This document shows, piece after piece, positions 5,871-20,817 of a stretch of DNA of 64,000 nt; position 1 is the stretch's first letter, and the number at the start of each line of letters is the position of its first letter. The notes under the pieces are model-generated. The model was not told the DNA's origin. It ran no database searches and was given only the letters and a program-made list of their open reading frames with translations. The position numbers and the translations under genes are program-made. The DNA is from Candidatus Enterousia sp. (GTDB lineage: Bacteria; Pseudomonadota; Alphaproteobacteria; Rs-D84), in contig JAZRJG010000021.1 of the NCBI GenBank assembly GCA_045645725.1, forward strand, positions 965 through 64,964. Reading direction: 5' to 3'.

Positions 5871-7181
5871 TTAATCAGAAAATTTACCGCGTAAAGATGC
5901 TTTGTTGGCATCAGAAATTTCGATATTTGCCAATTCGGGTGCGTTGTCACGGTATTCAACAATACATTGTTGCATAAAAGGTGTACGATATACCAAATGA
6001 CGTCCGGTTTTATCGGGGCCTTCTAAGAGACAGGATAATGTTTTGCCAATGCATCCCAAATTGAATTCGCGTTGAATTTCATTTAACAAAGAATCAAGTT
6101 TTGCCAAGCGTTCTGCTTTGATGTTTTCGGGTATTTGATTTGGCATTAATGCCGCCGCTGTATGTGGGCGTGGTGAATATTTGAACGAATATGAATTGAT
6201 ATAGCCGACTTGACGTGCGATGTTCATTGTTTCTTCAAAGTCGGAATCCGATTCGTCTGGGAACCCAACAATAAAGTCCGATGATATTTGTATGTCGGGA
6301 CGCGCGTTTCGCAGTTTGCGGATAATGTCATTGTATAATTCCAAACTGTACGGACGGTTCATTCGTTTTAATACGTTTTGAGAACCACTTTGGATTGGCA
6401 TATTTAAGAATGGCAATAATTTTGGTTCGGTTCTAAACATATCAATTAAGTCGTCGGTCATTTCGGTTGGGTAACTGGATGTAAAGCGTATACGCATGAT
6501 TTCTGGGATTTTTGCGGTTTCGCGTATTAAATCAGACAGACGATATTCTGTGCCATTTTCATCGGTGTATTTGTAACCGTTTACATTTTGACCCAAGAAA
6601 CATATTTCAATTGCGCCTGTTTTTGCGGCGTGAATTGTGTCGTGCATTACCGATTCGAATGAACGTGATAATTCACGGCCACGTGTGTATGGAACAATAC
6701 AGTATGTGCAGACATGGTTGCAACCTTCTTGGATTGGTATGTATGCAACACGTGGTGATTTTTCCATTTGTGGCAATTCATCGAATTTTTCCAGACCGCC
6801 TAAATCAATGTTCAATAATCGTGCGTCTGGATTTTCCAAAATTTGTGGTAATTTATGATATGATTGTGGACCCAATACAAAGTTCAGATCTGGGATGCGA
6901 CGAAATGCGGTTGCGCCGGCTTCACGTGCAACGCAACCAACAATGCCAAACAGGGCGGTTGGCTTTTTTGCACGACGAATGCGCCCCAATGCAGAAAATA
7001 CTTTATCGGTTGCTTTGGCGCGAACCGCACATGTGTTTAATATGATTATGTCGGCGTCGGATACTTGATCTGTTTGCGTTAAACCGTGATGCGTTAACAT
7101 CGCGGCAATGCGCCAGCCGTCGTAAACATTCATTTGGCATCCAAAGGTTTGGATAAAGAATTTTTTCTGTTTTGGTTGCAT
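5871..7181 (-). CDS. miaB: tRNA-i6A37 methylthiotransferase MiaB
   Basis: The N-terminal FFIQTFGCQMNVYDG is the MTTase domain. The radical-SAM motif is CNHVCTYCIVP. A C-terminal TRAM-like region is present. The protein is 436 aa. Confidence 0.9.
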   Translation of the reverse strand: MQPKQKKFFIQTFGCQMNVYDGWRIAAMLTHHGLTQTDQVSDADIIILNTCAVRAKATDKVFSALGRIRRAKKPTALFGIVGCVAREAGATAFRRIPDLNFVLGPQSYHKLPQILENPDARLLNIDLGGLEKFDELPQMEKSPRVAYIPIQEGCNHVCTYCIVPYTRGRELSRSFESVMHDTIHAAKTGAIEICFLGQNVNGYKYTDENGTEYRLSDLIRETAKIPEIMRIRFTSSYPTEMTDDLIDMFRTEPKLLPFLNMPIQSGSQNVLKRMNRPYSLELYNDIIRKLRNARPDIQISSDFIVGFPDESDSDFEETMNIARQVGYINSYSFKYSPRPHTAAALMPNQIPENIKAERLAKLDSLLNEIQREFNLGCIGKTLSCLLEGPDKTGRHLVYRTPFMQQCIVEYRDNAPELANIEISDANKASLRGKFSD

Positions 7182-7580: not shown

Positions 7581-9101
7581 TTATGCCAGTTTGTTTCTTA
7601 AAATTTCATTTACAACAGCCGGATTTGCGGTGCCACCGGTTTTTTTCATTACGTTGCCGACAAAGAAACCCAATAAACCCGTTTTGCCAGATTTGTATTG
7701 TTCGACTTGGGATGGATTTGCATTGATGACTTCGTCAACGATGGCTTCGATTGCGCCGGTGTCGGTCATTTGTTTCATGCCAAATTTGTCGGCGATGTCA
7801 CGTGGTGTGCCCGATTCGCCATCCAACATTTTGATAAATATTTCTTTGGCCTGTTTGCTGTTAATTGTGTTGTCGGAAATCATATCAACCAATTCGGCCA
7901 AATCTGATGGAGTGATGATGCGCATTTCATCAACGATGCCGGATTTTTCATTTAATACGTCCCAGTTTTCAGGATGGGCGAATAATTCTGATATCATCCA
8001 GTTTGCAACCGCTTTGGCACGTTTTGTGTCGCCGGCAACCGCTGTGTCATACCAATGGGATATGTCGGTTGTTTCGGTTAAACGTGCCGCGTCATAGTCA
8101 GACAGCCCGAATTCATGCGTATAGCGCGCGCGTGTCGCAGATGGTAATTCCGGCATTGTTTCACGGATGCGTTCTATTTGTTCGTCTGTTATTTCCAATG
8201 GTAACAAGTCCGGATCTGGGAAATAACGGTAATCCAATGCATCTTCTTTGCTGCGCATAACGGTTGTTGTGCCATCGCCTTGGTTAAAGTGCATTGTGTC
8301 TTGGGAAACGGTGCCACCGTTTTCATAGATTTCGATTTGACGACGTGCTTCAAATTCAATTGCAGTTTTAATAAATTTGAATGACACCATATTTTTTGTT
8401 TCTGTGCGTGTGCGGAATTTTGTGTCGCCAACCGGACGAACCGATACATTAACGTCGGCACGCATTGAACCTTCTTCCATGTTTGCTTTGGAAACGCCCA
8501 ATGCACGTGCGATTTCGCGAATTTCGCGCAGGTAACGTTCGGCTTCATCGGGTGATGAAATGTACGAACGGTTTTCAGGATCTTTGGTGTCCAAATATGT
8601 TACAATTTCCAACAATCCGACACTGGTTCGATTATAATCTGCAAAGGATTTTGTTGGATGTACATCGTGTTTTAATTTGCCGGCGTCTTGTTCCAAGTGT
8701 GCGCGTTCAATTAAGATTTTCTTTGGTTTGCCGTCATCGCCCATAATTTCAACCCAACCACGTCCAACAATTGGTGGTTCGTCGGCCGGTTGTGAAATTT
8801 GATAACCTTGGGGCAGGTCAGGGTATGAATATTGTTTACGGGCAAAACGACTGATGCGGGAAATTTCTGCGTTCAGCCCCAGACCCATTTTTATGGCTTG
8901 GTCAACGCAAAAATTGTTTAATACCGGTAACATACCAGGCATTGCAACGTCAACCATAGATACTTGGGTGTTGGGGGATACCGATGGGTTGTAATCTGCG
9001 GATGCGCCACTGAAAACTTTGGATTTAGACAGGACTTGGATATGTGTTTCCAAACCAATTACCAATTCCCAATCACATGTTTTGCCTTTTATCGTAAACA
9101 T
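7581..9101 (-). CDS. gatB: Asp-tRNA(Asn)/Glu-tRNA(Gln) amidotransferase subunit B
   Basis: The 506-aa product has the N-terminal WELVIGLETHIQVLSKSKVFSGASADY...PGMLPVLN. The C-terminal YqeY-like tail ...GKTGLLGFFVGNVMKKTGG is present. Confidence 0.95.
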   Translation of the reverse strand: MFTIKGKTCDWELVIGLETHIQVLSKSKVFSGASADYNPSVSPNTQVSMVDVAMPGMLPVLNNFCVDQAIKMGLGLNAEISRISRFARKQYSYPDLPQGYQISQPADEPPIVGRGWVEIMGDDGKPKKILIERAHLEQDAGKLKHDVHPTKSFADYNRTSVGLLEIVTYLDTKDPENRSYISSPDEAERYLREIREIARALGVSKANMEEGSMRADVNVSVRPVGDTKFRTRTETKNMVSFKFIKTAIEFEARRQIEIYENGGTVSQDTMHFNQGDGTTTVMRSKEDALDYRYFPDPDLLPLEITDEQIERIRETMPELPSATRARYTHEFGLSDYDAARLTETTDISHWYDTAVAGDTKRAKAVANWMISELFAHPENWDVLNEKSGIVDEMRIITPSDLAELVDMISDNTINSKQAKEIFIKMLDGESGTPRDIADKFGMKQMTDTGAIEAIVDEVINANPSQVEQYKSGKTGLLGFFVGNVMKKTGGTANPAVVNEILRNKLA

Positions 9102-9156: not shown

Positions 9157-9232
9157 GGCTAGGTAGCTCAGTTGGTAGAGCAAGGGACTGAAAATCCCTG
9201 TGTCGGCGGTTCGATTCCGTCCCTAGCCACCA
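9157..9232 (+). tRNA. tRNA-Phe (anticodon GAA), antisense to and between gatB and gatA
   Basis: The acceptor stem is GGCTAGG/CCTAGCC. The D-arm is TAGCTCAGTTGGTAGAGC. The anticodon stem is AGGGA/TCCCT with loop CTGAAAA. The T-arm is GGTTCGATTCC. A terminal CCA is encoded. Confidence 0.85.
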
Positions 9233-9300: not shown

Positions 9301-10776
9301 TTATTTCCCCATAATTACTGTTGGGCGGTTATTAATGCCGGCGGCCGATTCGATATGTTTGGCCAATTGCAGAACACGCATGTCTGAAAAACGTGGACCA
9401 ACAACTTGCATTCCCAATGGCAGACCGTTTGTTGCCAAGCCGCATGGTACGCTGCATGCAGGTACACCCGCCAAGTTCATTGCAACGGTGAATAAATCCA
9501 ATGCATAATATTCCAATGGTGTTAAACCCGCATCCAATGGCATTGCCGTTCCCGCAGATGCAGGGCATACAATTAAATCGCATTTTTCAAATGCGGCATT
9601 GAAACTGTCGGCAATCATGCGACGAACGCGTGCGGCCTGCATGAAATATACGTCATAGGATTCGCTGCTTAATACCGCGGTGCCGATAATCATACGGCGT
9701 TTGACTTCGTCGCCAAAGCCGGCGGCGCGTGTTTTCTTGAATGTGTCGTATATATCTGTGCCTTCTATACGCAATCCATAGCGCATACCGTCATAGCGTG
9801 CCAAGTTCGATGATGCTTCGGCCGGTGCAATGATATAGTATGCCGCCAATGCATCCAATATATTTGGTATGGACACTTCGACAATTTCCGCACCCATAGA
9901 TTTTAAGTCGGCAATTCTTTTTTCAAATAAATTTTTCATATCATCGGAAATTGCGACATCTGCAAATTCTTTGATTACGCCGACACGCAGTGTTTTGCCA
10001 TCGCCCAATACGGGTGTTAATGGTGCATCGCATTTGAAATCACCGTGCGCACTGGTTGAATCTTTTTCGTCGTGTCCGGCCATTGCAGACAATAATAATG
10101 CGGTGTCATCGACGGTACGTGCAATTGGGCCGGGGGTATCCAAAGAAGATGCAAATGCAACGCATCCCCAACGTGAACACAAACCATATGTTGGCTTCAT
10201 GCCAACCAATCCTGTAATCGCCGCAGGAAAGCGTATAGAGCCACCTGTGTCTGTGCCGGTTGCGCCCAATGCCAATCCAGAAGCCACCGCCGATGTTGAG
10301 CCGCCCGAAGAACCGCCGGCGGTTAATTTGTTTTCCATTTGCCATGGATTAATCGGGGCGCCAAAGTAACTTGTTTTGCTGAAAGTGCCCATCGCAAATT
10401 CGTCCAGATTTGCTTTGCCCAACATAACTGTACCGGCATCAATAAATTTTTGTGATACGGTCGATTCGTATTCAGGCACAAAGTTTTCCAACATACGTGA
10501 TGCCGCAGTTGTGCGAATGCCACGTGTTGCGAACAAATCCTTCATCGCAATTGGAATACCGTCCAAGGGCAGGGCGTTGCCGGCACTGCGTCTGGCGTCA
10601 GATGCAGCAGCGTCAGCGAGTGCGCGTTCCGGTGTCACAGTGATATAGCAATTCAAATCTGTGCCATATTTTTCAATGCGGTCCAGATATGCGCGTGTCA
10701 ATTCAACAGCAGAAGTTTCGCCGCTGTTCAGTTTTGCCAATGCTTCGGTCAATGTTAAGTTTATCATTTTGCTCAC
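9301..10776 (-). CDS. gatA: Glu-tRNA(Gln) amidotransferase subunit A
   Basis: The 491-aa product has the amidase signature. The N-terminal LTEALAKLNSGETSAVELTRAYLDRIE is present. A Ser-cisSer-Lys region with GGSSGGS is present. Confidence 0.95.
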   Translation of the reverse strand: MSKMINLTLTEALAKLNSGETSAVELTRAYLDRIEKYGTDLNCYITVTPERALADAAASDARRSAGNALPLDGIPIAMKDLFATRGIRTTAASRMLENFVPEYESTVSQKFIDAGTVMLGKANLDEFAMGTFSKTSYFGAPINPWQMENKLTAGGSSGGSTSAVASGLALGATGTDTGGSIRFPAAITGLVGMKPTYGLCSRWGCVAFASSLDTPGPIARTVDDTALLLSAMAGHDEKDSTSAHGDFKCDAPLTPVLGDGKTLRVGVIKEFADVAISDDMKNLFEKRIADLKSMGAEIVEVSIPNILDALAAYYIIAPAEASSNLARYDGMRYGLRIEGTDIYDTFKKTRAAGFGDEVKRRMIIGTAVLSSESYDVYFMQAARVRRMIADSFNAAFEKCDLIVCPASAGTAMPLDAGLTPLEYYALDLFTVAMNLAGVPACSVPCGLATNGLPLGMQVVGPRFSDMRVLQLAKHIESAAGINNRPTVIMGK

Positions 10777-10796
10777 TTTCCGTTTTTTGTTGTTTT

Positions 10797-11075
10797 TTAC
10801 CTGCTGTGTTTTAAGTAATTTTTTAAGAACTTTGTCCGTACTATATTTGTTAAATAGCGACCACGATTTATAATAATTTTTGGTGTGACTGGGACTTGGT
10901 TGCCCGGGGAATATGTATAGCGACCCGTTGATGGTCCAATAACGCCAATTTTTGTACGTGGTGCCTCGATAGAATAATATACTTCTAACTGTAATGTGGC
11001 ATTTTGAATGTCACACACGTTTAACTGGGGATCCAGTGGCACTATGCTGCTGCATTTTGATATTGTGTACTTCAT
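10797..11075 (-). CDS. hypothetical small basic protein P4 (92 aa), embedded in the gatC-gatA operon
   Basis: The start is the internal ATG. It forms an ATGA start/stop overlap with upstream P3. The stop lies 20 nt before the gatA start. There is no signal peptide. Function unknown. Confidence 0.5.
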   Translation of the reverse strand: MKYTISKCSSIVPLDPQLNVCDIQNATLQLEVYYSIEAPRTKIGVIGPSTGRYTYSPGNQVPVTPKIIINRGRYLTNIVRTKFLKNYLKHSR

Positions 11076-11497
11076 TTGGTTCGTTCCTGTTTTATCTGTG
11101 ATGTGCGTATTTGTTTGCTGTATGCGTTTGCAAAAATTACAGACCACACGTTTGTGCGCATGAATTCGTCTGCGCATTTTCCGGCCGATGCACGTTTAAT
11201 ACATTCTTGTATTTTTTTTGATGTTGGTAATGCACGGATTGCATTTAATCCAATGTATTTGCATGGCATTTTGGTGTTGCAATCAATATCGCAAATTATT
11301 TCAAATGTGACGTGCGTTTTGCCGGTTACGACATCATAGCCAAAATACACATCTGGGAAATTCATGCAATGACATTGTAGGTGTGTTGTAGATAGGTTGT
11401 TTAACACTTGGATCGCAGCAGATGCGGGTATAGGTGTGCCAACCGGTGTGTTCGCACCAAATGGTTTTGTTCCAAAAAATGTTTGTACTGTCTTCAT
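11072..11497 (-). CDS. hypothetical Cys-containing protein P3 (141 aa), a paralog of P1
   Basis: It shares an N[FW]P...GY.VT block with P1. It shares the C-terminal KIQECIKRASAGKCADEF...AYSKQ module with P1 and P2. Confidence 0.55.
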   Translation of the reverse strand: MKTVQTFFGTKPFGANTPVGTPIPASAAIQVLNNLSTTHLQCHCMNFPDVYFGYDVVTGKTHVTFEIICDIDCNTKMPCKYIGLNAIRALPTSKKIQECIKRASAGKCADEFMRTNVWSVIFANAYSKQIRTSQIKQERTK

Positions 11498-11499
11498 TT

Positions 11500-11877
11500 T
11501 TATCGTTGTTTGTTATAACTTTCGGGCCAAAATACCATGGCGATATTTTTGATTGCTATTGGGTCTTGGCACAGGCCACGTGACATGCGGCCCAGACATG
11601 CACGCATTTTGTCCGTTGGACGTAATGCGTTAATGTTGCCGCCCGTTGCGTGGTTGCATGGTGCGCATAATGTTTTGCCAAATGAACCGATAACAGCGGC
11701 GTTTGTGTCACTTAACATATGTATGTATATTTCCTGTAAACATGGCGCCTTGGTGTCTTGGGTGGATTTTATAAATCTGGACATTTGACGTGTTTTTGTA
11801 ATAGATATCTTTTGACTGATGTTGTATGTAACATCTGTATCTGTATCGTAAAAAGTTACCGTTATATTATTTGCCAT
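11500..11877 (-). CDS. hypothetical Cys-containing protein P2 (125 aa)
   Basis: The C-terminal ...CLGRMSRGLCQDPIAIKNIAMVFWPESYNKQR matches the P1/P3 C-terminal module. The gap to P3 is 2 nt. Confidence 0.5.
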   Translation of the reverse strand: MANNITVTFYDTDTDVTYNISQKISITKTRQMSRFIKSTQDTKAPCLQEIYIHMLSDTNAAVIGSFGKTLCAPCNHATGGNINALRPTDKMRACLGRMSRGLCQDPIAIKNIAMVFWPESYNKQR

Positions 11878-11888
11878 ATATAAATCTT

Positions 11889-12314
11889 TTATTTTTGTTT
11901 TGTATAGTGTTCTGGGAATAAAACCATCCCCAGGGTTTTTTGTATAAATTCATCACAACATTTGCCGTTACGCAAATTTTTGGCACAGCGTTTAATTTTT
12001 TGTGCGTCGGTTTGATTCTTTTTTTGTGCGCAGCACTTTGGGTATCTGTCGGGATAGAACATTCCGTCCAAATCCAATTGTGGTGTGCGTGCGCCGGCGT
12101 CATATGTTCGGCCGAAACGGACGCGATCCGTATATTGTAAACCCATTGATAGAATGCATGCGTTTTTGTCCGGTGTGGCGGACGCAAAGACATTCATCAA
12201 ATTTTCTATTGTGTTATGCGTGACATAGCCCAAAAGAGAAATGTGGGTTGGCCAGTTTTCATATGGATCATATGCGACCATATTCACGGGAATGTTTCGT
12301 TTTGTGTCGGACAT
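11889..12314 (-). CDS. hypothetical Cys-containing protein P1 (141 aa)
   Basis: The start lies 3 nt after the gatC stop. The C-terminal reads ...KIKRCAKNLRNGKCCDEFIQKTLGMVLFPEHYTKQK. Confidence 0.55.
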   Translation of the reverse strand: MSDTKRNIPVNMVAYDPYENWPTHISLLGYVTHNTIENLMNVFASATPDKNACILSMGLQYTDRVRFGRTYDAGARTPQLDLDGMFYPDRYPKCCAQKKNQTDAQKIKRCAKNLRNGKCCDEFIQKTLGMVLFPEHYTKQK

Positions 12315-12317
12315 TAC

Positions 12318-12620
12318 TTAATCCCCATCCATAACCTTTGGTACCGCAAAGTATCCACGTGATGTGCCGGCGTTGTCGGGTGCGTTTGCCAAAACCAAAT
12401 CGCGAATATTACCGTCGGTTACAACGTCTTGGCGTGTTGGTAATTTGTGTTCAGATGGGTTTAACAATGGTTCAACGCCCGTTGTGTCAATTTTCTGTAA
12501 TTTATCCAACCATTCAACGACCGAATCAATGTTCATTTCGGCCAATTTTTCATCCGATATTTCAATCTTAATCAGGTCTGCGAATTTTTGTAATTGTTGC
12601 TTGCTAAATGCCATTTTCAA
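12318..12620 (-). CDS. gatC: Glu-tRNA(Gln) amidotransferase subunit C
   Basis: The product is 100 aa. It has ...IEISDEKLAEMNIDSVVEWLDKLQKIDTTGVEPLLNP...GYFAVPKVMD, which matches the GatC pattern. Confidence 0.85.
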   Translation of the reverse strand: MKMAFSKQQLQKFADLIKIEISDEKLAEMNIDSVVEWLDKLQKIDTTGVEPLLNPSEHKLPTRQDVVTDGNIRDLVLANAPDNAGTSRGYFAVPKVMDGD

Positions 12621-12652
12621 TCCTATTATTTATAGAGTAAAGGGATTATACA

Positions 12653-13105
12653 ATGATTTTGCCAGATTTCAAGGGTTTTCCACGTTCGGGACGTATATTG
12701 GGAATTGATTGGGGATTACGCAGAATTGGTGTTGCGATATCTGATCCGTCGCATGAATTTGTTTTTGTGCGACCGGTGATAAATATTGTGCGTGGTGCAA
12801 ATAATCATGCGGCGGTTGTTGCGCGTCTTGCCCAAGAAGAGGGGGCGGTTGGTATTGTTGTTGGGTTGCCGGTTCGTGGTGATGGATCGGAATCAGATAC
12901 GACACGTTTGGTAAAGCAATTTGTTACAGAATTATCCAGTGTGACCGATTTGCCGATTTGTACAATAGAAGAAAATTTGACGTCGGCCACCGCACAAGAT
13001 GAAATGGGCCGCGTGCGTGTTCGTGATTTAAAAGAACGGTTGGATTCTGAATCTGCACGTGTGATTTTAGAAAATGCAATTGCAATGATAAAACGGGCTT
13101 TGTAA
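12653..13105 (+). CDS. ruvX: Holliday-junction resolvase-like / pre-16S rRNA nuclease YqgF (RuvX)
   Basis: The product is 150 aa. The N-terminal RILGIDWGLRRIGVAISDP matches the RNase H-like YqgF N-terminal motif. It is divergent from gatC. Confidence 0.8.
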   Translation: MILPDFKGFPRSGRILGIDWGLRRIGVAISDPSHEFVFVRPVINIVRGANNHAAVVARLAQEEGAVGIVVGLPVRGDGSESDTTRLVKQFVTELSSVTDLPICTIEENLTSATAQDEMGRVRVRDLKERLDSESARVILENAIAMIKRAL

Positions 13106-17858: not shown

Positions 17859-19157
17859 ATGTTCCGCAAATTTTTGATTGCTGCGATGTTCGCAACCGCT
17901 GCTGGGTACTGTTTTGCATCGGATGATGCACCTCAGGCCGTTACGTCACAGGTTTATTATGATCAAGAAAAATACATTGATGAAATCGTAGATGTTCAAA
18001 CGGAACCTATTAACCGTGCGTCGTTCAAAATGGCGCGTGATATACCGGCGTGGCCATTGGTTGGTTCGGATGCCGATGTAGAGGTTGGCTGTAAAGATGG
18101 TTTGTGTTCAAAAAAATCAATGGATGATTCTGTGCGTGTTGTGACAAAAGTTGGTCCGGATTTGGTCGTTGAAAATAATTTTAATTTGGGTACACGTGGT
18201 CAATTCTTGGGCTGGTCGGGTGGTGCAAATATGTTACACGGAAATCAGATTCCGGTTGGTTTTGATGATGAGTGTGCCAATAATTCTGAAATGCCATTGT
18301 TGCATCGTGAAGTTTTGGAAGACGATGGGGGCAGTGTTTTGGCCGTTTCGCGTGGTGGACGTAAAAACTGTGGTCGCTATGCCGATACGTACGAAGGTTT
18401 TGCCGCCAGAAATAATATGAAGGTTTCTGGTGTTACAGCCGATGGTAAAAATGTTACAACCGTTGCAAAAGTGTCGGTTGGTTCGTTGCAACAGGATATG
18501 GGTGGTAACAAGGTCGTTGCATTGGATGCGGGTATGGGTGATATGTTTGTTGTAGCCGAAAATGCTGGTCGTGTTGTCGAAGATGAAAATGGTAATCGTG
18601 CGGTTGCGGTGCGTGATCAAAACGGTGAAATGATGGTTGTGCCATCTGATGTTGGTCAGGTAATAGAAGACGCAATGGGTGAAACAATGGTGGCGATTTC
18701 GGACAAAAATGGTCAAACCGTCGTTGTGTCTGAAAAAAGCGGTATGATTGTAGAGGATATGGCCGGAAATCGTGCGGTTGCGTTCCGTGCAGATAATGGT
18801 GATGTTGTGGTTGTGACCGAAGAAACGGTTGTTACAACCGAAGAAACAATGGTTGCGGTTAATGAATCTGCAGATGCCGAAGCGCCGGTTAAGGCGGTTG
18901 ACCAAGTTCGTTCTTGGGTGGTTGCAAATGGTCAAACATTGCGTGAAGTATTGCAATCTTGGTGTGATAAAGAAGGTTGGGATTTGGTTTGGACAACTGC
19001 ACGTGAATATCCAATAGAAGCCAGTGCTGTTTTCAAAGGTCGTTTTGTTGATGTTGCGTCGGCTTTGGTTCGTAACTTTGGTCGTGCGACACCAATCCCA
19101 TATGCAAAATTCTATAAAGGTAATAGAGTATTGGTGATTTCAACCACAGAAGAATAA
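17859..19157 (+). CDS. secreted protein with a TcpQ-like C-terminal domain (PilL/TcpQ family, type IVb pilus secretin partner)
   Basis: A signal peptide is present. The central ~40-aa repeats read VVEDENGNRAVAVRDQNGEMMVV / VIEDAMGETMVAISDKNGQTVVV / IVEDMAGNRAVAFRADNGDVVVV. The C-terminal ...GQTLREVLQSWCDKEGWDLVW...YPIEASAVFKGRFVDVASALVRNF resembles the TcpQ C-terminal domain. Confidence 0.6.
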   Translation: MFRKFLIAAMFATAAGYCFASDDAPQAVTSQVYYDQEKYIDEIVDVQTEPINRASFKMARDIPAWPLVGSDADVEVGCKDGLCSKKSMDDSVRVVTKVGPDLVVENNFNLGTRGQFLGWSGGANMLHGNQIPVGFDDECANNSEMPLLHREVLEDDGGSVLAVSRGGRKNCGRYADTYEGFAARNNMKVSGVTADGKNVTTVAKVSVGSLQQDMGGNKVVALDAGMGDMFVVAENAGRVVEDENGNRAVAVRDQNGEMMVVPSDVGQVIEDAMGETMVAISDKNGQTVVVSEKSGMIVEDMAGNRAVAFRADNGDVVVVTEETVVTTEETMVAVNESADAEAPVKAVDQVRSWVVANGQTLREVLQSWCDKEGWDLVWTTAREYPIEASAVFKGRFVDVASALVRNFGRATPIPYAKFYKGNRVLVISTTEE

Positions 19158-19188
19158 TTCGTTGTTCAGATGCCGTAGGAGAAAATAG

Positions 19189-20817
19189 ATGAAAAAAATG
19201 TTGAAACGTGTTGTTATGGGTGCTTTGGTCGTGGCGTGCGTTGCAGGTTGTGCAAAGCGTGAATCGGCCCAAGTGGCGGCATCTGTTGACCAAGATTTTA
19301 TTAATGCATATGATGCATTTGAAATGGCGAAAAATCCGCGCGCCAAAGTGGCCAGTGGTGATACCGTTTCTATGTCCGAAGGTGTGTGGTTGGGAAATAA
19401 ATCTGTTGTTTTGGAACACAGAAATAATTTGCCGGCAAAATTTGAATCCGATACGGGTGTTACTATCTTGTTGAACGAACCGGTTTCTTTACAGGTTTTG
19501 GCAAATGATATTTATTCTATTACCGGTATCCCCGTTAAAATAGACAGTCAAGTTGCTGCAGATAAATTAAGAAAGTTGGTTAATGTTGCATATACGGGTA
19601 AGTTGTCCGGATTGTTATCTCAGGTTGCGACGGATTTAGATTTGTTGTGGTATTATGATAAAAATTCAATTGTATTCTATGAAACAGAGACGCGTACATT
19701 TACATTGTATGCATTGGGGACCGAAGTGGCATATCAGACGTCGGTTTCAACAGACGATGCAAATGAAGTATCGTTGGCGTCTACTTTGAAAGAATGGGAT
19801 GAAGTAGAAAGCGCAATTTCATCTATTATTGGTAACAGCAGTAATGCGGACTTTACCGTTTCGCGCAGTTTGGGGACGATTACTGTTACAGCATCGCCTT
19901 CGATTTTGTCGCGTGTTGGGGAATATATTGAACGTCAAAATAAACGTTTAAGTCAATTGATTACAATTGATGTAAAGGTTTTACAGGTAACTATTTCAAA
20001 TGATTCTGCGTTTGGTTTGAATTTGGCGGCGGCAATTAATTCAACGTCTGGTTTGAATATTGTTGCGAATCCAAAAAATAATTTGGCATCAACCGAAGCC
20101 AGTTCTATGAATATTGCGGTGTTGTCTAATACTGTTTCGGCATTGACGGGTGCAACACATATGGAAAATGGCAGTTTGGCCGAAGGCGCATATACAAACG
20201 ATCAGATTATGAACGGTTCCTTGGCGGGTGCCGCGGGCAGTAATGCTTTGATAGAAGCATTGGCAAAGCAGGGTAAAGTATCTTTGGTTACAAATGTTGG
20301 TGTAACAACGCGTTCAAATCGTGTTGCACCAGTTAGCAATACGCGTACAACGGGGTATATCAAACGCTTTGAATCACGTAACTTTACAACGGTTGAATCC
20401 AGTACGGTTGACCAAGATGATTTGGAAACGGGCTTTACAATGCAGTTGTTGCCAAATGTCTTGGACAACGGTAAGATTTTATTGTTGTTCCGTATGTCGG
20501 TGCGTGAATTGTTGCGTATGTCGACCCAGACAATTGGTGAAGTAACATTGCAATTGCCCGAAGTAGAAGAACGCAGTTTCATGCAAGAAGTTATTATGGA
20601 ATCGGGACAAATGTTGGTCGTTTCCGGCTTTGAAAAACAGACCAGTGAAGATACACGTTATGGTTTGGGTGATCCGGACTTTATGGCATTGTCTGGTTCA
20701 CGTGAAACATCGGCCACCCGTGAAGTATTGGTTGTTATTTTGACGCCACAGGTATTGGTAAGTCCGATGGATGTTGAACGTAGTATTCAGCAGCACTGGG
20801 GTGCACCACTAAATTAA
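19189..20817 (+). CDS. lipoprotein secretin of the BfpB/TcpC/PilN (type IVb pilus/T2SS-like) family
   Basis: The RBS is GTAGGAGAAAATAGATG. The lipobox is VAGC. A secretin-type block reads ...QLITIDVKVLQVTISNDSAFGLNL... The C-terminal ...TREVLVVILTPQVLVSP is present. The product is 542 aa. Confidence 0.65.
   Translation: MKKMLKRVVMGALVVACVAGCAKRESAQVAASVDQDFINAYDAFEMAKNPRAKVASGDTVSMSEGVWLGNKSVVLEHRNNLPAKFESDTGVTILLNEPVSLQVLANDIYSITGIPVKIDSQVAADKLRKLVNVAYTGKLSGLLSQVATDLDLLWYYDKNSIVFYETETRTFTLYALGTEVAYQTSVSTDDANEVSLASTLKEWDEVESAISSIIGNSSNADFTVSRSLGTITVTASPSILSRVGEYIERQNKRLSQLITIDVKVLQVTISNDSAFGLNLAAAINSTSGLNIVANPKNNLASTEASSMNIAVLSNTVSALTGATHMENGSLAEGAYTNDQIMNGSLAGAAGSNALIEALAKQGKVSLVTNVGVTTRSNRVAPVSNTRTTGYIKRFESRNFTTVESSTVDQDDLETGFTMQLLPNVLDNGKILLLFRMSVRELLRMSTQTIGEVTLQLPEVEERSFMQEVIMESGQMLVVSGFEKQTSEDTRYGLGDPDFMALSGSRETSATREVLVVILTPQVLVSPMDVERSIQQHWGAPLN

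What the first reader, a model, noticed from the sequence alone, without database searches (positions are those of the whole stretch)
10797..12620. Four small ORFs inserted and translationally packed between gatC and gatA
gatC and gatA are normally adjacent or overlapping. Here four co-directional ORFs (P1 141 aa, P2 125 aa, P3 141 aa, P4 92 aa) sit between them. The spacings are 3 nt after the gatC stop, 11 nt, 2 nt and an ATGA overlap, and then 20 nt before gatA. These gaps imply co-transcription and translational coupling with the amidotransferase operon. P1, P2 and P3 are paralogs sharing a Cys-containing C-terminal module (GKCCDEF/GKCADEF/GLCQDP ... F.PE.Y.KQ[KR]). None has a signal peptide, and no known domain is recognised. 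This could be a novel accessory module riding on, or functionally coupled to, the tRNA-dependent amidotransferase.
Basis: seen in the sequence. Interest (0 to 1): 0.72.

Follow-up and report, generated by a model that had tools for sequence, protein, structure and literature searches.

The report
Hypervariable small-gene slot inside gatCAB operon
Four real, tightly packed small genes of unknown families sit between gatC and gatA in a reduced-genome gut alphaproteobacterium (Candidatus Enterousia), and across 78 related species this one junction holds anything from zero to four such genes, making it a fast-evolving accessory-gene hotspot inside an essential operon and probably not a fixed part of the amidotransferase.

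The parts
12645..12672 (-). Promoter-like site (TTGAAA, 16-nt spacer, TATAAT) in the ruvX-gatC divergent spacer; the candidate promoter for gatC, P1-P4 and gatA
   Evidence: 11 of 12 consensus positions, the best match in the region. This is a consensus match only, not evidence of function.
12318..12614 (-). gatC (98 aa from ATG 12614). Its last codons (GAT GGG GAT TAA) supply the SD-like GGGGA for whatever gene follows
   Evidence: Pfam GatC 4.8e-13. Orthologs are 84-100% identical in 80 species.
11889..12314 (-). P1, family A, 141 aa, the commonest slot type. It has a variable N-terminal beta-beta-alpha-beta-beta domain and a conserved C-terminal three-helix module with conserved C53, C94, C110 and C119
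11500..11877 (-). P2, family A paralog, 125 aa
   Evidence: Family HMM E = 4e-20. dN/dS 0.35-0.39.
11072..11497 (-). P3, family A paralog, 141 aa, with a 12-residue C-terminal extension. Its TGA stop overlaps the P4 ATG
   Evidence: Family HMM E = 3.7e-25.
10797..11075 (-). P4, family B, 92 aa, basic (pI 9.9). The model is a five-strand sheet or barrel plus a C-terminal helix, possibly OB-like. It is unrelated to family A
10768..10796 (-). 29-nt spacer between P4 and gatA carrying the SD-like GGAAAGTGAG for gatA
9301..10767 (-). gatA (488 aa from ATG 10767, the start used by all orthologs)
   Evidence: Pfam Amidase 3.3e-138. Orthologs.
9157..9232 (+). tRNA-Phe(GAA) on the opposite strand in the gatA-gatB spacer. 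It is context, not part of the slot
   Evidence: Conserved in all 27 related loci checked.
7581..9101 (-). gatB (506 aa)
   Evidence: GatB_N and GatB_Yqey are annotated for the identical gene in L001. Orthologs.

Best explanation
The gatC-gatA junction of Candidatus Enterousia is a hypervariable accessory-gene slot, and the window carries its fullest known state, A-A-A-B.

Shown:
- The four genes are real, under purifying but relaxed selection, basic and cytoplasmic.
- They have no promoter or terminator of their own and are packed with start/stop spacings of -4 to 29 nt. They must therefore be transcribed from the gatC promoter and translated by coupling.
- gatC's last codons provide the SD-like sequence for the first cassette, and the 3' end of the last cassette provides the SD-like sequence for gatA. 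In many species that 3' end supplies an AAATGA stop/start overlap instead.
- Across species the slot is empty or holds one to four genes drawn from four unrelated families, while the adjacent junctions are fixed.
- Neighbouring cassettes in the same pair of strains differ many-fold in dS. Unrelated cassettes share the same 3' junction sequence. Deletion remnants keep both junctions.

Inferred mechanism of variation: cassettes are gained, swapped and lost by homologous recombination through the conserved gatC and gatA flanks, and through the shared junction sequence and C-terminal module. Tandem duplication and microhomology deletion add to this. Selection tolerates only events that keep gatA translation intact.

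Inferred function: family A is a small Cys4 (probably zinc-stapled) protein with a conserved C-terminal helical module and a hypervariable N-terminal recognition domain.
- It works together with B (OB-like), C (RNA-polymerase alpha-CTD-like helix-hairpin-helix plus coiled coil) or D, because A-B and A-C occur as in-frame fusions.
- The basic charge and the nucleic-acid-binding character of the partners point to nucleic-acid-binding or protein-binding adaptors.
- The pace and pattern of change point to a strain-specific, conflict-type or niche-type role.
- I judge a housekeeping role in Gln/Asn-tRNA amidation unlikely.
For: Reality and expression of the genes:
- Anatomy and packing. Promoter present and only one weak internal terminator-like match.
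- The same locus appears in independent assemblies. Diverged four-gene and three-gene versions appear in other lineages.
- dN/dS is 0.15-0.45 for P1-P4, against 0.02-0.11 for gatA.

Variability of the slot:
- The survey covered 80 species loci, all Enterousia or uncultured gut Alphaproteobacteria.
- The gatC-gatA gap is 2-1550 nt, with quartiles 297, 447 and 853. In contrast ruvX-gatC is 39-55 nt in 79 of 80 loci, and gatA-gatB is 131-317 nt in 73 of 74.
- There are 13 architectures, scattered over the gatA tree.
- Median pairwise identity is 30% for slot A proteins and 88% for GatA. The variability is concentrated in residues 1-110.

Recombination and loss:
- dS is mosaic. Window versus L007: gatC 0.22, P3 0.011. 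L008 versus L012: P4 0.27, P3 0.012. L008 versus L011: P1 0.34, and P3, P4 and gatC 0.
- Junction re-use and ATGA overlaps with gatA.
- L082 is an in-frame internal-deletion remnant. L028 keeps a 3' A remnant that still overlaps the gatA ATG.
- There are no attC-like or terminal repeats.

Families and localisation:
- A/B/C/D HMM hits occur only in the slot across about 1 Mb of sampled sequence.
- C53, C110 and C119 are invariant and C94 is nearly invariant.
- Confident models with no PDB match.
- Family C matches RNA_pol_A_CTD above the Pfam threshold, and A-C, A-B and HTH-A fusions exist.
- pI is 9.0-9.9.
- The organism has a reduced genome of 0.75-1.0 Mb (PMC12306168).
Against: - No direct evidence of transcription, protein expression, zinc binding or any binding partner.
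- The conflict or niche role is inferred only from evolutionary pattern. dN/dS is below 1 in every well-populated comparison, so positive selection is not demonstrated.
- No hit to known defence systems (PADLOC) or to phage proteins.
- The strict localisation to this one operon in Enterousia and the stoichiometry-preserving coupling would also fit a GatCAB-related role.
- The gatA tree used to map the architectures may itself be affected by recombination.
- Whole genomes were not scanned, so other copies elsewhere in Enterousia genomes cannot be excluded. Only the 64-kb window and 12-kb flanks were examined.
Confidence: 0.6

Rival explanations
1. P1-P4 are lineage-specific accessory subunits or regulators of the transamidosome. 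Examples would be tRNA-binding or GatCAB-binding adaptors, analogous in role to Helicobacter Hp0100 or archaeal SepCysE. On this view they sit between gatC and gatA so that they are made stoichiometrically with the enzyme.
For: - The location is exclusive to the gatCAB operon within Enterousia.
- Translational coupling is tight, including AAATGA overlaps with gatA.
- A is present in 55 of 60 occupied slots.
- The proteins are basic (pI 9-10) while GatC and GatA are acidic.
- P4's weak structural neighbours are OB-folds, including tRNA-binding MetRS C-terminal domains.
- Precedents for extra transamidosome components appear in the literature list. The role of Hp0100 is from my own knowledge and was not read here.
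Against: - 18 of 78 species have none of these genes.
- Unrelated families substitute for each other in the slot.
- Identity is 30%, against 88% for the supposed partner.
- Remnants that destroy the protein are tolerated.
- All six non-Enterousia contexts examined lack gatCAB.
Confidence: 0.15
2. The cassettes are purely selfish hitchhikers, like morons or free-standing homing genes, with no benefit to the host. They persist because the slot guarantees expression and because any imprecise excision would damage gatA translation.
For: - Presence and absence between conserved genes is patchy among close relatives.
- Flanking-marker mosaicism is present.
- Remnants keep only the junctions.
- Family A is fused in frame to different host gene products: ACP, a BirA N-terminal fragment and a PBP fragment.
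- One family-A-bearing contig carries genes matching phage families phrog_1909/DUF7192 and phrog_249.
Against: - No nuclease, recombinase or toxin motif is found in any of the four families.
- There are no boundary repeats.
- dN/dS of 0.2-0.4 and strictly conserved Cys, Gly, Asp and Tyr positions show selection on the proteins themselves.
- These are genomes under 1 Mb that otherwise shed dispensable DNA.
- There are no matches in IMG/VR or GenBank phages.
Confidence: 0.15
3. The ORFs are annotation artefacts in a long non-coding spacer or decayed pseudogenes.
For: There are no database annotations and no known domains.
Against: - The reading frames are conserved across lineages down to 30-55% identity.
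- dN/dS is below 1.
- A profile retrieves 117 clusters.
- AlphaFold pLDDT is 91-92.
- Cys positions are invariant.
Confidence: 0.02

Closest known systems
Chromosomal hotspots or accessory-gene islands flanked by core genes, exchanged by homologous recombination through the flanks
   Same: - The flanks (gatC, gatA) are conserved while the content between them varies among close relatives.
- Divergence is mosaic, indicating recombination.
- No dedicated mobility genes are present.
   Different: - The slot lies inside an essential operon, between two subunits of one enzyme.
- Cassettes have no promoter, terminator or spacer of their own and must preserve translational coupling.
- The cargo is restricted to four small orphan families.
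- The host genome is under 1 Mb.
Free-standing homing endonuclease genes and morons of phage genomes
   Same: Small promoter-less genes are wedged between conserved genes, patchily present among relatives, with co-conversion-like mosaic flanks.
   Different: - No HNH, GIY-YIG, LAGLIDADG or other nuclease signature.
- The context is chromosomal, not phage.
- The proteins carry a conserved Cys4 module.
Integron gene-cassette arrays
   Same: Tandem, co-directional, promoter-less small ORFs are expressed from one upstream promoter, and cassette number and order vary.
   Different: - No attC-like repeats between cassettes.
- The gaps of -4 to 29 nt leave no room for attC sites.
- No integrase is seen in the flanks.
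- The array is embedded in gatCAB.
Arrays of orphan immunity genes or small anti-conflict proteins in gut bacteria
   Same: Tandem paralogs of about 90-150 aa that evolve fast, vary in copy number between strains and have no enzymatic motifs.
   Different: - No cognate toxin or known immunity family is detected.
- The Cys4 module is conserved.
- The genes are located in a housekeeping operon.
Lineage-specific transamidosome accessory proteins (e.g. Helicobacter Hp0100, archaeal SepCysE)
   Same: Extra small proteins are associated with indirect tRNA aminoacylation enzymes.
   Different: - No sequence or fold similarity.
- The proteins here are dispensable in many sister species and are replaced by unrelated families.

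Membership tests
GatCAB or transamidosome subunit | Consistent co-occurrence with gatCAB across the lineages that carry the protein family | tested here: not met
   18 of 78 Enterousia-clade species lack all slot genes. Family A in other lineages lies next to accC, fabD/queH or gyrA, is fused to ACP, or sits on a contig with phage-family genes, never beside gatCAB.
GatCAB or transamidosome subunit | Physical interaction with GatC, GatA, GatB or tRNA | not testable with these tools
   No multimer prediction or biochemistry was available.
Integron cassette array | attC recombination sites at cassette boundaries and a nearby intI integrase | tested here: not met
   No boundary direct or inverted repeats. 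Intergenic gaps are -4 to 29 nt. No integrase appears among the flanking genes listed.
Free-standing homing endonuclease gene | A nuclease domain (HNH, GIY-YIG, LAGLIDADG, PD-(D/E)XK or similar) | tested here: not met
Free-standing homing endonuclease gene | Patchy presence between conserved genes, with recombination of the flanks | tested here: met
Toxin-antitoxin or known anti-phage defence system | Match to known toxin, antitoxin or defence protein models, and an obligate gene pair | tested here: not met
   PADLOC found nothing for P1-P4 and Pfam found nothing. A alone occurs in 23 species and B alone in 4.
Cys4 zinc-binding module (structural zinc site) | Four conserved Cys ligands | tested here: met
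Cys4 zinc-binding module (structural zinc site) | Metal actually bound, and the four Cys adjacent in three dimensions | not testable with these tools
OB-fold (for P4, family B) | Five-stranded closed beta-barrel with significant structural similarity to known OB domains | tested here: inconclusive
Core-gene-flanked recombination hotspot | Conserved flanking genes, variable content among close relatives, invariant neighbouring junctions and signs of recombination | tested here: met

The most novel reading that the evidence does not exclude
Families A and B are a previously unknown, rapidly diversifying guard or adaptor system of the transamidosome. The conserved Cys4 C-terminal module would dock onto GatCAB or its tRNA substrates, and the hypervariable N-terminal domain would recognise and neutralise strain-specific attackers, such as phage factors or interbacterial toxins aimed at tRNA-dependent amidation (the Tse8 type of T6SS toxin). 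That would explain why the system is wired into the gatCAB operon and why it is polymorphic.
Probability: 0.12. Interest if true: 0.85.

Novelty: new variant of a known kind. Interest (0 to 1): 0.63.

Why it matters
Essential, translationally coupled operons for multi-subunit enzymes are usually treated as off-limits to gene flux. Here a genus with genomes under 1 Mb keeps a cassette-like, recombining array of orphan genes exactly between two subunits of an essential enzyme. There are 13 architectures in 78 species, and the proteins diverge about five times more (median roughly 70% against 12% amino-acid difference) than their neighbours.

If the reading is right, it matters in three ways:
- Accessory-gene hotspots can exist without any mobility machinery, shaped only by flanking homology and by the need to preserve downstream translation.
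- It defines at least two uncharacterised protein families with confidently predicted folds that have no solved relatives. One is a Cys4 module found in more than 100 sequence clusters.
- It gives a compact marker locus for strain typing and for studying conflict or niche adaptation in an uncultured, host-associated, reduced-genome lineage.

Tried and rejected
Searches that found nothing:
- Pfam, NCBIfam, PHROGs and PADLOC scans of P1-P4 gave no credible hit.
- A profile search against PDB sequences found nothing.
- Foldseek against viral structures found nothing at E <= 0.001.
- The afdb50 library was unavailable.
- Rfam found only tRNAs in the window, with no leader or riboswitch.

Ideas tested and dropped:
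- P4 as a degenerate family A member was rejected by BLASTP and hhalign.
- Integron-like or transposon-like boundaries were rejected. There are no repeats.
- A phage origin remains only a weak lead. IMG/VR gave no relatives and GenBank phages gave no tblastn match. The only support is one 5-kb metagenome contig (L105), where tandem family A genes neighbour genes matching phrog_1909/DUF7192 and phrog_249.

Technical limits:
- P0005 and L006 (87 aa with a different N-terminus, coverage 1.2x) were judged a probable chimeric assembly and ignored.
- The first word-indexed homolog search found only 5 clusters. That understated the family, as the exhaustive profile search later showed.
A narrower one worked.
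Full report
**What is in the window**

The finding lies on the minus strand. The order is gatC, P1, P2, P3, P4, gatA.
- gatC: 12318-12614, 98 aa from the ATG used by its orthologs.
- P1: 11889-12314, 141 aa.
- P2: 11500-11877, 125 aa.
- P3: 11072-11497, 141 aa.
- P4: 10797-11075, 92 aa.
- gatA: 9301-10767.

A tRNA-Phe gene follows on the opposite strand (9157-9232), then gatB (7581-9101). Pfam confirms GatC and the GatA amidase.

The gaps are 3, 11 and 2 nt, then a 4-nt ATGA overlap, then 29 nt. A strong promoter-like site (11 of 12 positions) lies upstream of gatC in the 40-nt ruvX-gatC spacer. The only terminator-like match on the coding strand inside the slot is a weak hairpin within the P3 coding sequence.

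**The genes are real**
- Identical or nearly identical copies of the four-gene block occur in an NCBI metagenome assembly and in several ENA and Logan assemblies.
- A second lineage carries diverged orthologs of all four genes in the same place. There GatC and GatA are 88-90% identical to the window's, but P1 is 35%, P2 30%, P3 54% and P4 74-88%.
- A third lineage has only P2-, P3- and P4-like genes.
- Between close strains, dN/dS is 0.15-0.45 for P1-P4 and 0.02-0.11 for gatA. Selection is purifying but relaxed.

**The protein families**

P1, P2 and P3 are paralogs, which I call family A. BLASTP E-values over the C-terminal 37-52 residues are 2e-8 to 4e-7.
- An exhaustive profile search finds 117 clusters at 50% identity, mostly 120-150 aa.
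- In a 102-sequence alignment C53, C110, G117, C119 and Y137 are invariant, and C94 and D121 nearly so. Four conserved Cys suggest a structural zinc site.
- AlphaFold gives a confident model for P1 (pLDDT 91, pTM 0.84). It has a beta-beta-alpha-beta-beta N-terminal domain and three C-terminal helices.

P4 (family B) is unrelated to A.
- It has about 30 clusters of homologs.
- Its best AlphaFold model has pLDDT 92, although the other four models are poor.

None of the four proteins hits Pfam, NCBIfam, PHROGs or PADLOC. All are basic (pI 9.0-9.9) and lack hydrophobic segments.

**The organism**

A gatC-based scan of one genome per species returned 80 loci. All are MAGs of Candidatus Enterousia or unnamed gut Alphaproteobacteria from ruminants, birds and humans. 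Enterousia belongs to the order Rs-D84, with genomes of 0.75-1.0 Mb that lack the TCA cycle and a respiratory chain (PMC12306168).

**The key result: the slot is hypervariable**
- Among 78 species loci with both flanking genes, the gatC-gatA distance ranges from 2 to 1550 nt, with quartiles 297, 447 and 853.
- By contrast ruvX-gatC is 39-55 nt in 79 of 80 loci, and gatA-gatB is 131-317 nt in 73 of 74.
- Thirteen architectures occur: A alone 23, empty 18, AA 8, AC 7, AD 5, B 4, BA 3, AAB 3, BAC 2, DA 2, BAA 1, C 1, and AAAB 1, which is the window's species.
- Family C is a 133-180-aa protein with an RNA-polymerase alpha-CTD-like domain (Pfam PF03118, 32-37 bits against a cut-off of 23.8) plus a coiled coil. 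Family D is an unrelated protein of about 194-227 aa.
- The states are scattered over a GatA tree, and sister species often differ.
- In about 1 Mb of sampled Enterousia sequence, every A, B, C or D hit lies in this slot, except one B-like gene just upstream of gatC.
- Slot A proteins have a median pairwise identity of 30%, against 88% for GatA in the same genomes. The variability is concentrated in residues 1-110, and the last 30 residues are conserved.

**How the slot changes**
- There are no boundary repeats and no room for recombination sites.
- dS is mosaic from gene to gene within the same pair of strains. Window versus L007: gatC 0.22, P3 0.011. L008 versus L012: P4 0.27, P3 0.012. L008 versus L011: P1 0.34, with P3, P4 and gatC at 0. 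This indicates recombinational exchange of individual cassettes.
- In empty slots gatC's TAA is followed by 3-6 nt and the gatA ATG, and the SD-like sequence lies in gatC's last codons.
- In occupied slots the first cassette starts 0-3 nt after that TAA. In many species the last A gene ends ...GKQK with its TGA overlapping the gatA ATG (AAATGA).
- Unrelated A and D cassettes share the same 3' junction sequence.
- L082 carries a 55-aa in-frame internal-deletion remnant of its sister's A gene. It has lost all Cys but keeps both junctions.
- L028 keeps only the last ~18 codons of an A gene, still overlapping the gatA start.

These remnants show two things. The proteins are dispensable, and what selection insists on is intact translation initiation of gatA.

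**What the proteins might do**

In-frame A-C (L043/P0026) and A-B (P0057) fusions indicate that the families act together. Elsewhere family A has several other contexts:
- fused to a bona fide acyl carrier protein domain (P0124, three independent contigs);
- fused to a BirA-type HTH fragment;
- downstream of accC;
- beside fabD and queH;
- divergent from gyrA;
- in tandem on a 5-kb contig next to genes matching phage families phrog_1909/DUF7192 and phrog_249.

None of these contexts involves gatCAB. No relatives were found in IMG/VR or GenBank phages.

The recurring features are basic charge, a Cys4 module, an OB-like partner and an alpha-CTD-like helix-hairpin-helix partner. These suggest nucleic-acid-binding or protein-binding adaptors. 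This is inference, not demonstration.

**Interpretation**

The most likely explanation (about 0.6) has three parts.
- The junction is a recombination-driven accessory-gene slot whose cargo rides on gatCAB transcription and translational coupling.
- Content turns over through homologous recombination via the conserved flanks and shared junctions, through tandem duplication and through deletion.
- The cargo is a set of small, fast-diversifying binding proteins with a strain-specific role, possibly related to conflict.

The rivals are as follows.
- A dedicated transamidosome accessory role (about 0.15). It is favoured by the exclusive location and the coupling. It is disfavoured by the 18 empty species, family substitution, the 30% identity, the tolerated remnants and the unrelated contexts elsewhere.
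- Purely selfish hitchhiking (about 0.15). It is disfavoured by the absence of any nuclease or recombinase motif, and by clear selection on the proteins in genomes that otherwise shed DNA.
- An annotation artefact, which is excluded.

**Novelty and interest**

Core-gene-flanked hotspots are known. A cassette-like, promoter-less, translationally coupled array between two subunits of an essential enzyme, in a genome under 1 Mb, built from orphan families with new predicted folds, is an unusual variant. I rate it a new variant of a known kind, with interest of about 0.63. The main limits are the unknown biochemical function and the uncultured host.

Noticed in passing
window 9157-9232 (+): A tRNA-Phe(GAA) gene lies on the strand opposite to gatA and gatB, inside their 199-nt spacer. 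The 'gatCAB operon' is therefore interrupted by an antisense tRNA gene. The arrangement is conserved in all 27 related loci checked.
   Followed up: partly
L082 6292-6480 and L028 about 6585-6640: These are deletion remnants of family A genes. L082 is a 55-aa in-frame fusion of the N-terminal 47 residues to the last 5 residues. L028 keeps only the last ~18 codons. Both preserve the junction with gatA.
   Followed up: yes
L023 8965-10245: A 426-aa ORF of unknown family is inserted 4 nt after the gatA stop, before the antisense tRNA-Phe. It is the only locus of 74 with an enlarged gatA-gatB spacer. The ORF ends in ...GTKQK, like many slot proteins.
   Followed up: no
L085 5608-5916: A family-B-like 102-aa ORF lies between ruvX and gatC, upstream of gatC. 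It is the only A/B/C/D hit found outside the gatC-gatA slot, and the only enlarged ruvX-gatC spacer among 80 loci.
   Followed up: partly
L105 (JAEIGA010075081.1) 121-2437: There is an array of small Cys-rich paralogs: three copies of an 'MSFTQE...CDGCDKxCxLG' domain, one of them fused to a family A domain, plus a second family A gene. Next to them are genes matching DUF7192/phrog_1909 and phrog_249. This may be a phage fragment carrying family A.
   Followed up: partly
L096 5644-6288 (P0124); also P0034, P0094, P0111: Family A domains are fused in frame to an N-terminal acyl carrier protein (PP-binding) domain in several clusters. Other members lie next to accC or fabD, or are fused to a BirA N-terminal fragment. 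This is a recurrent but unexplained link to fatty-acid and biotin genes.
   Followed up: partly
window 17859-20817 (+): TcpQ-like and secretin genes (a pilus or secretion outer-membrane channel) lie about 5 kb from the slot in this reduced genome. They are annotated in the identical locus L001.
   Followed up: no
window 12318-12620 and 9301-10776: Mechanical ORF calling extends gatC to a TTG start and gatA to a GTG start. Orthologs show that the true starts are ATG 12614 and ATG 10767.
   Followed up: yes
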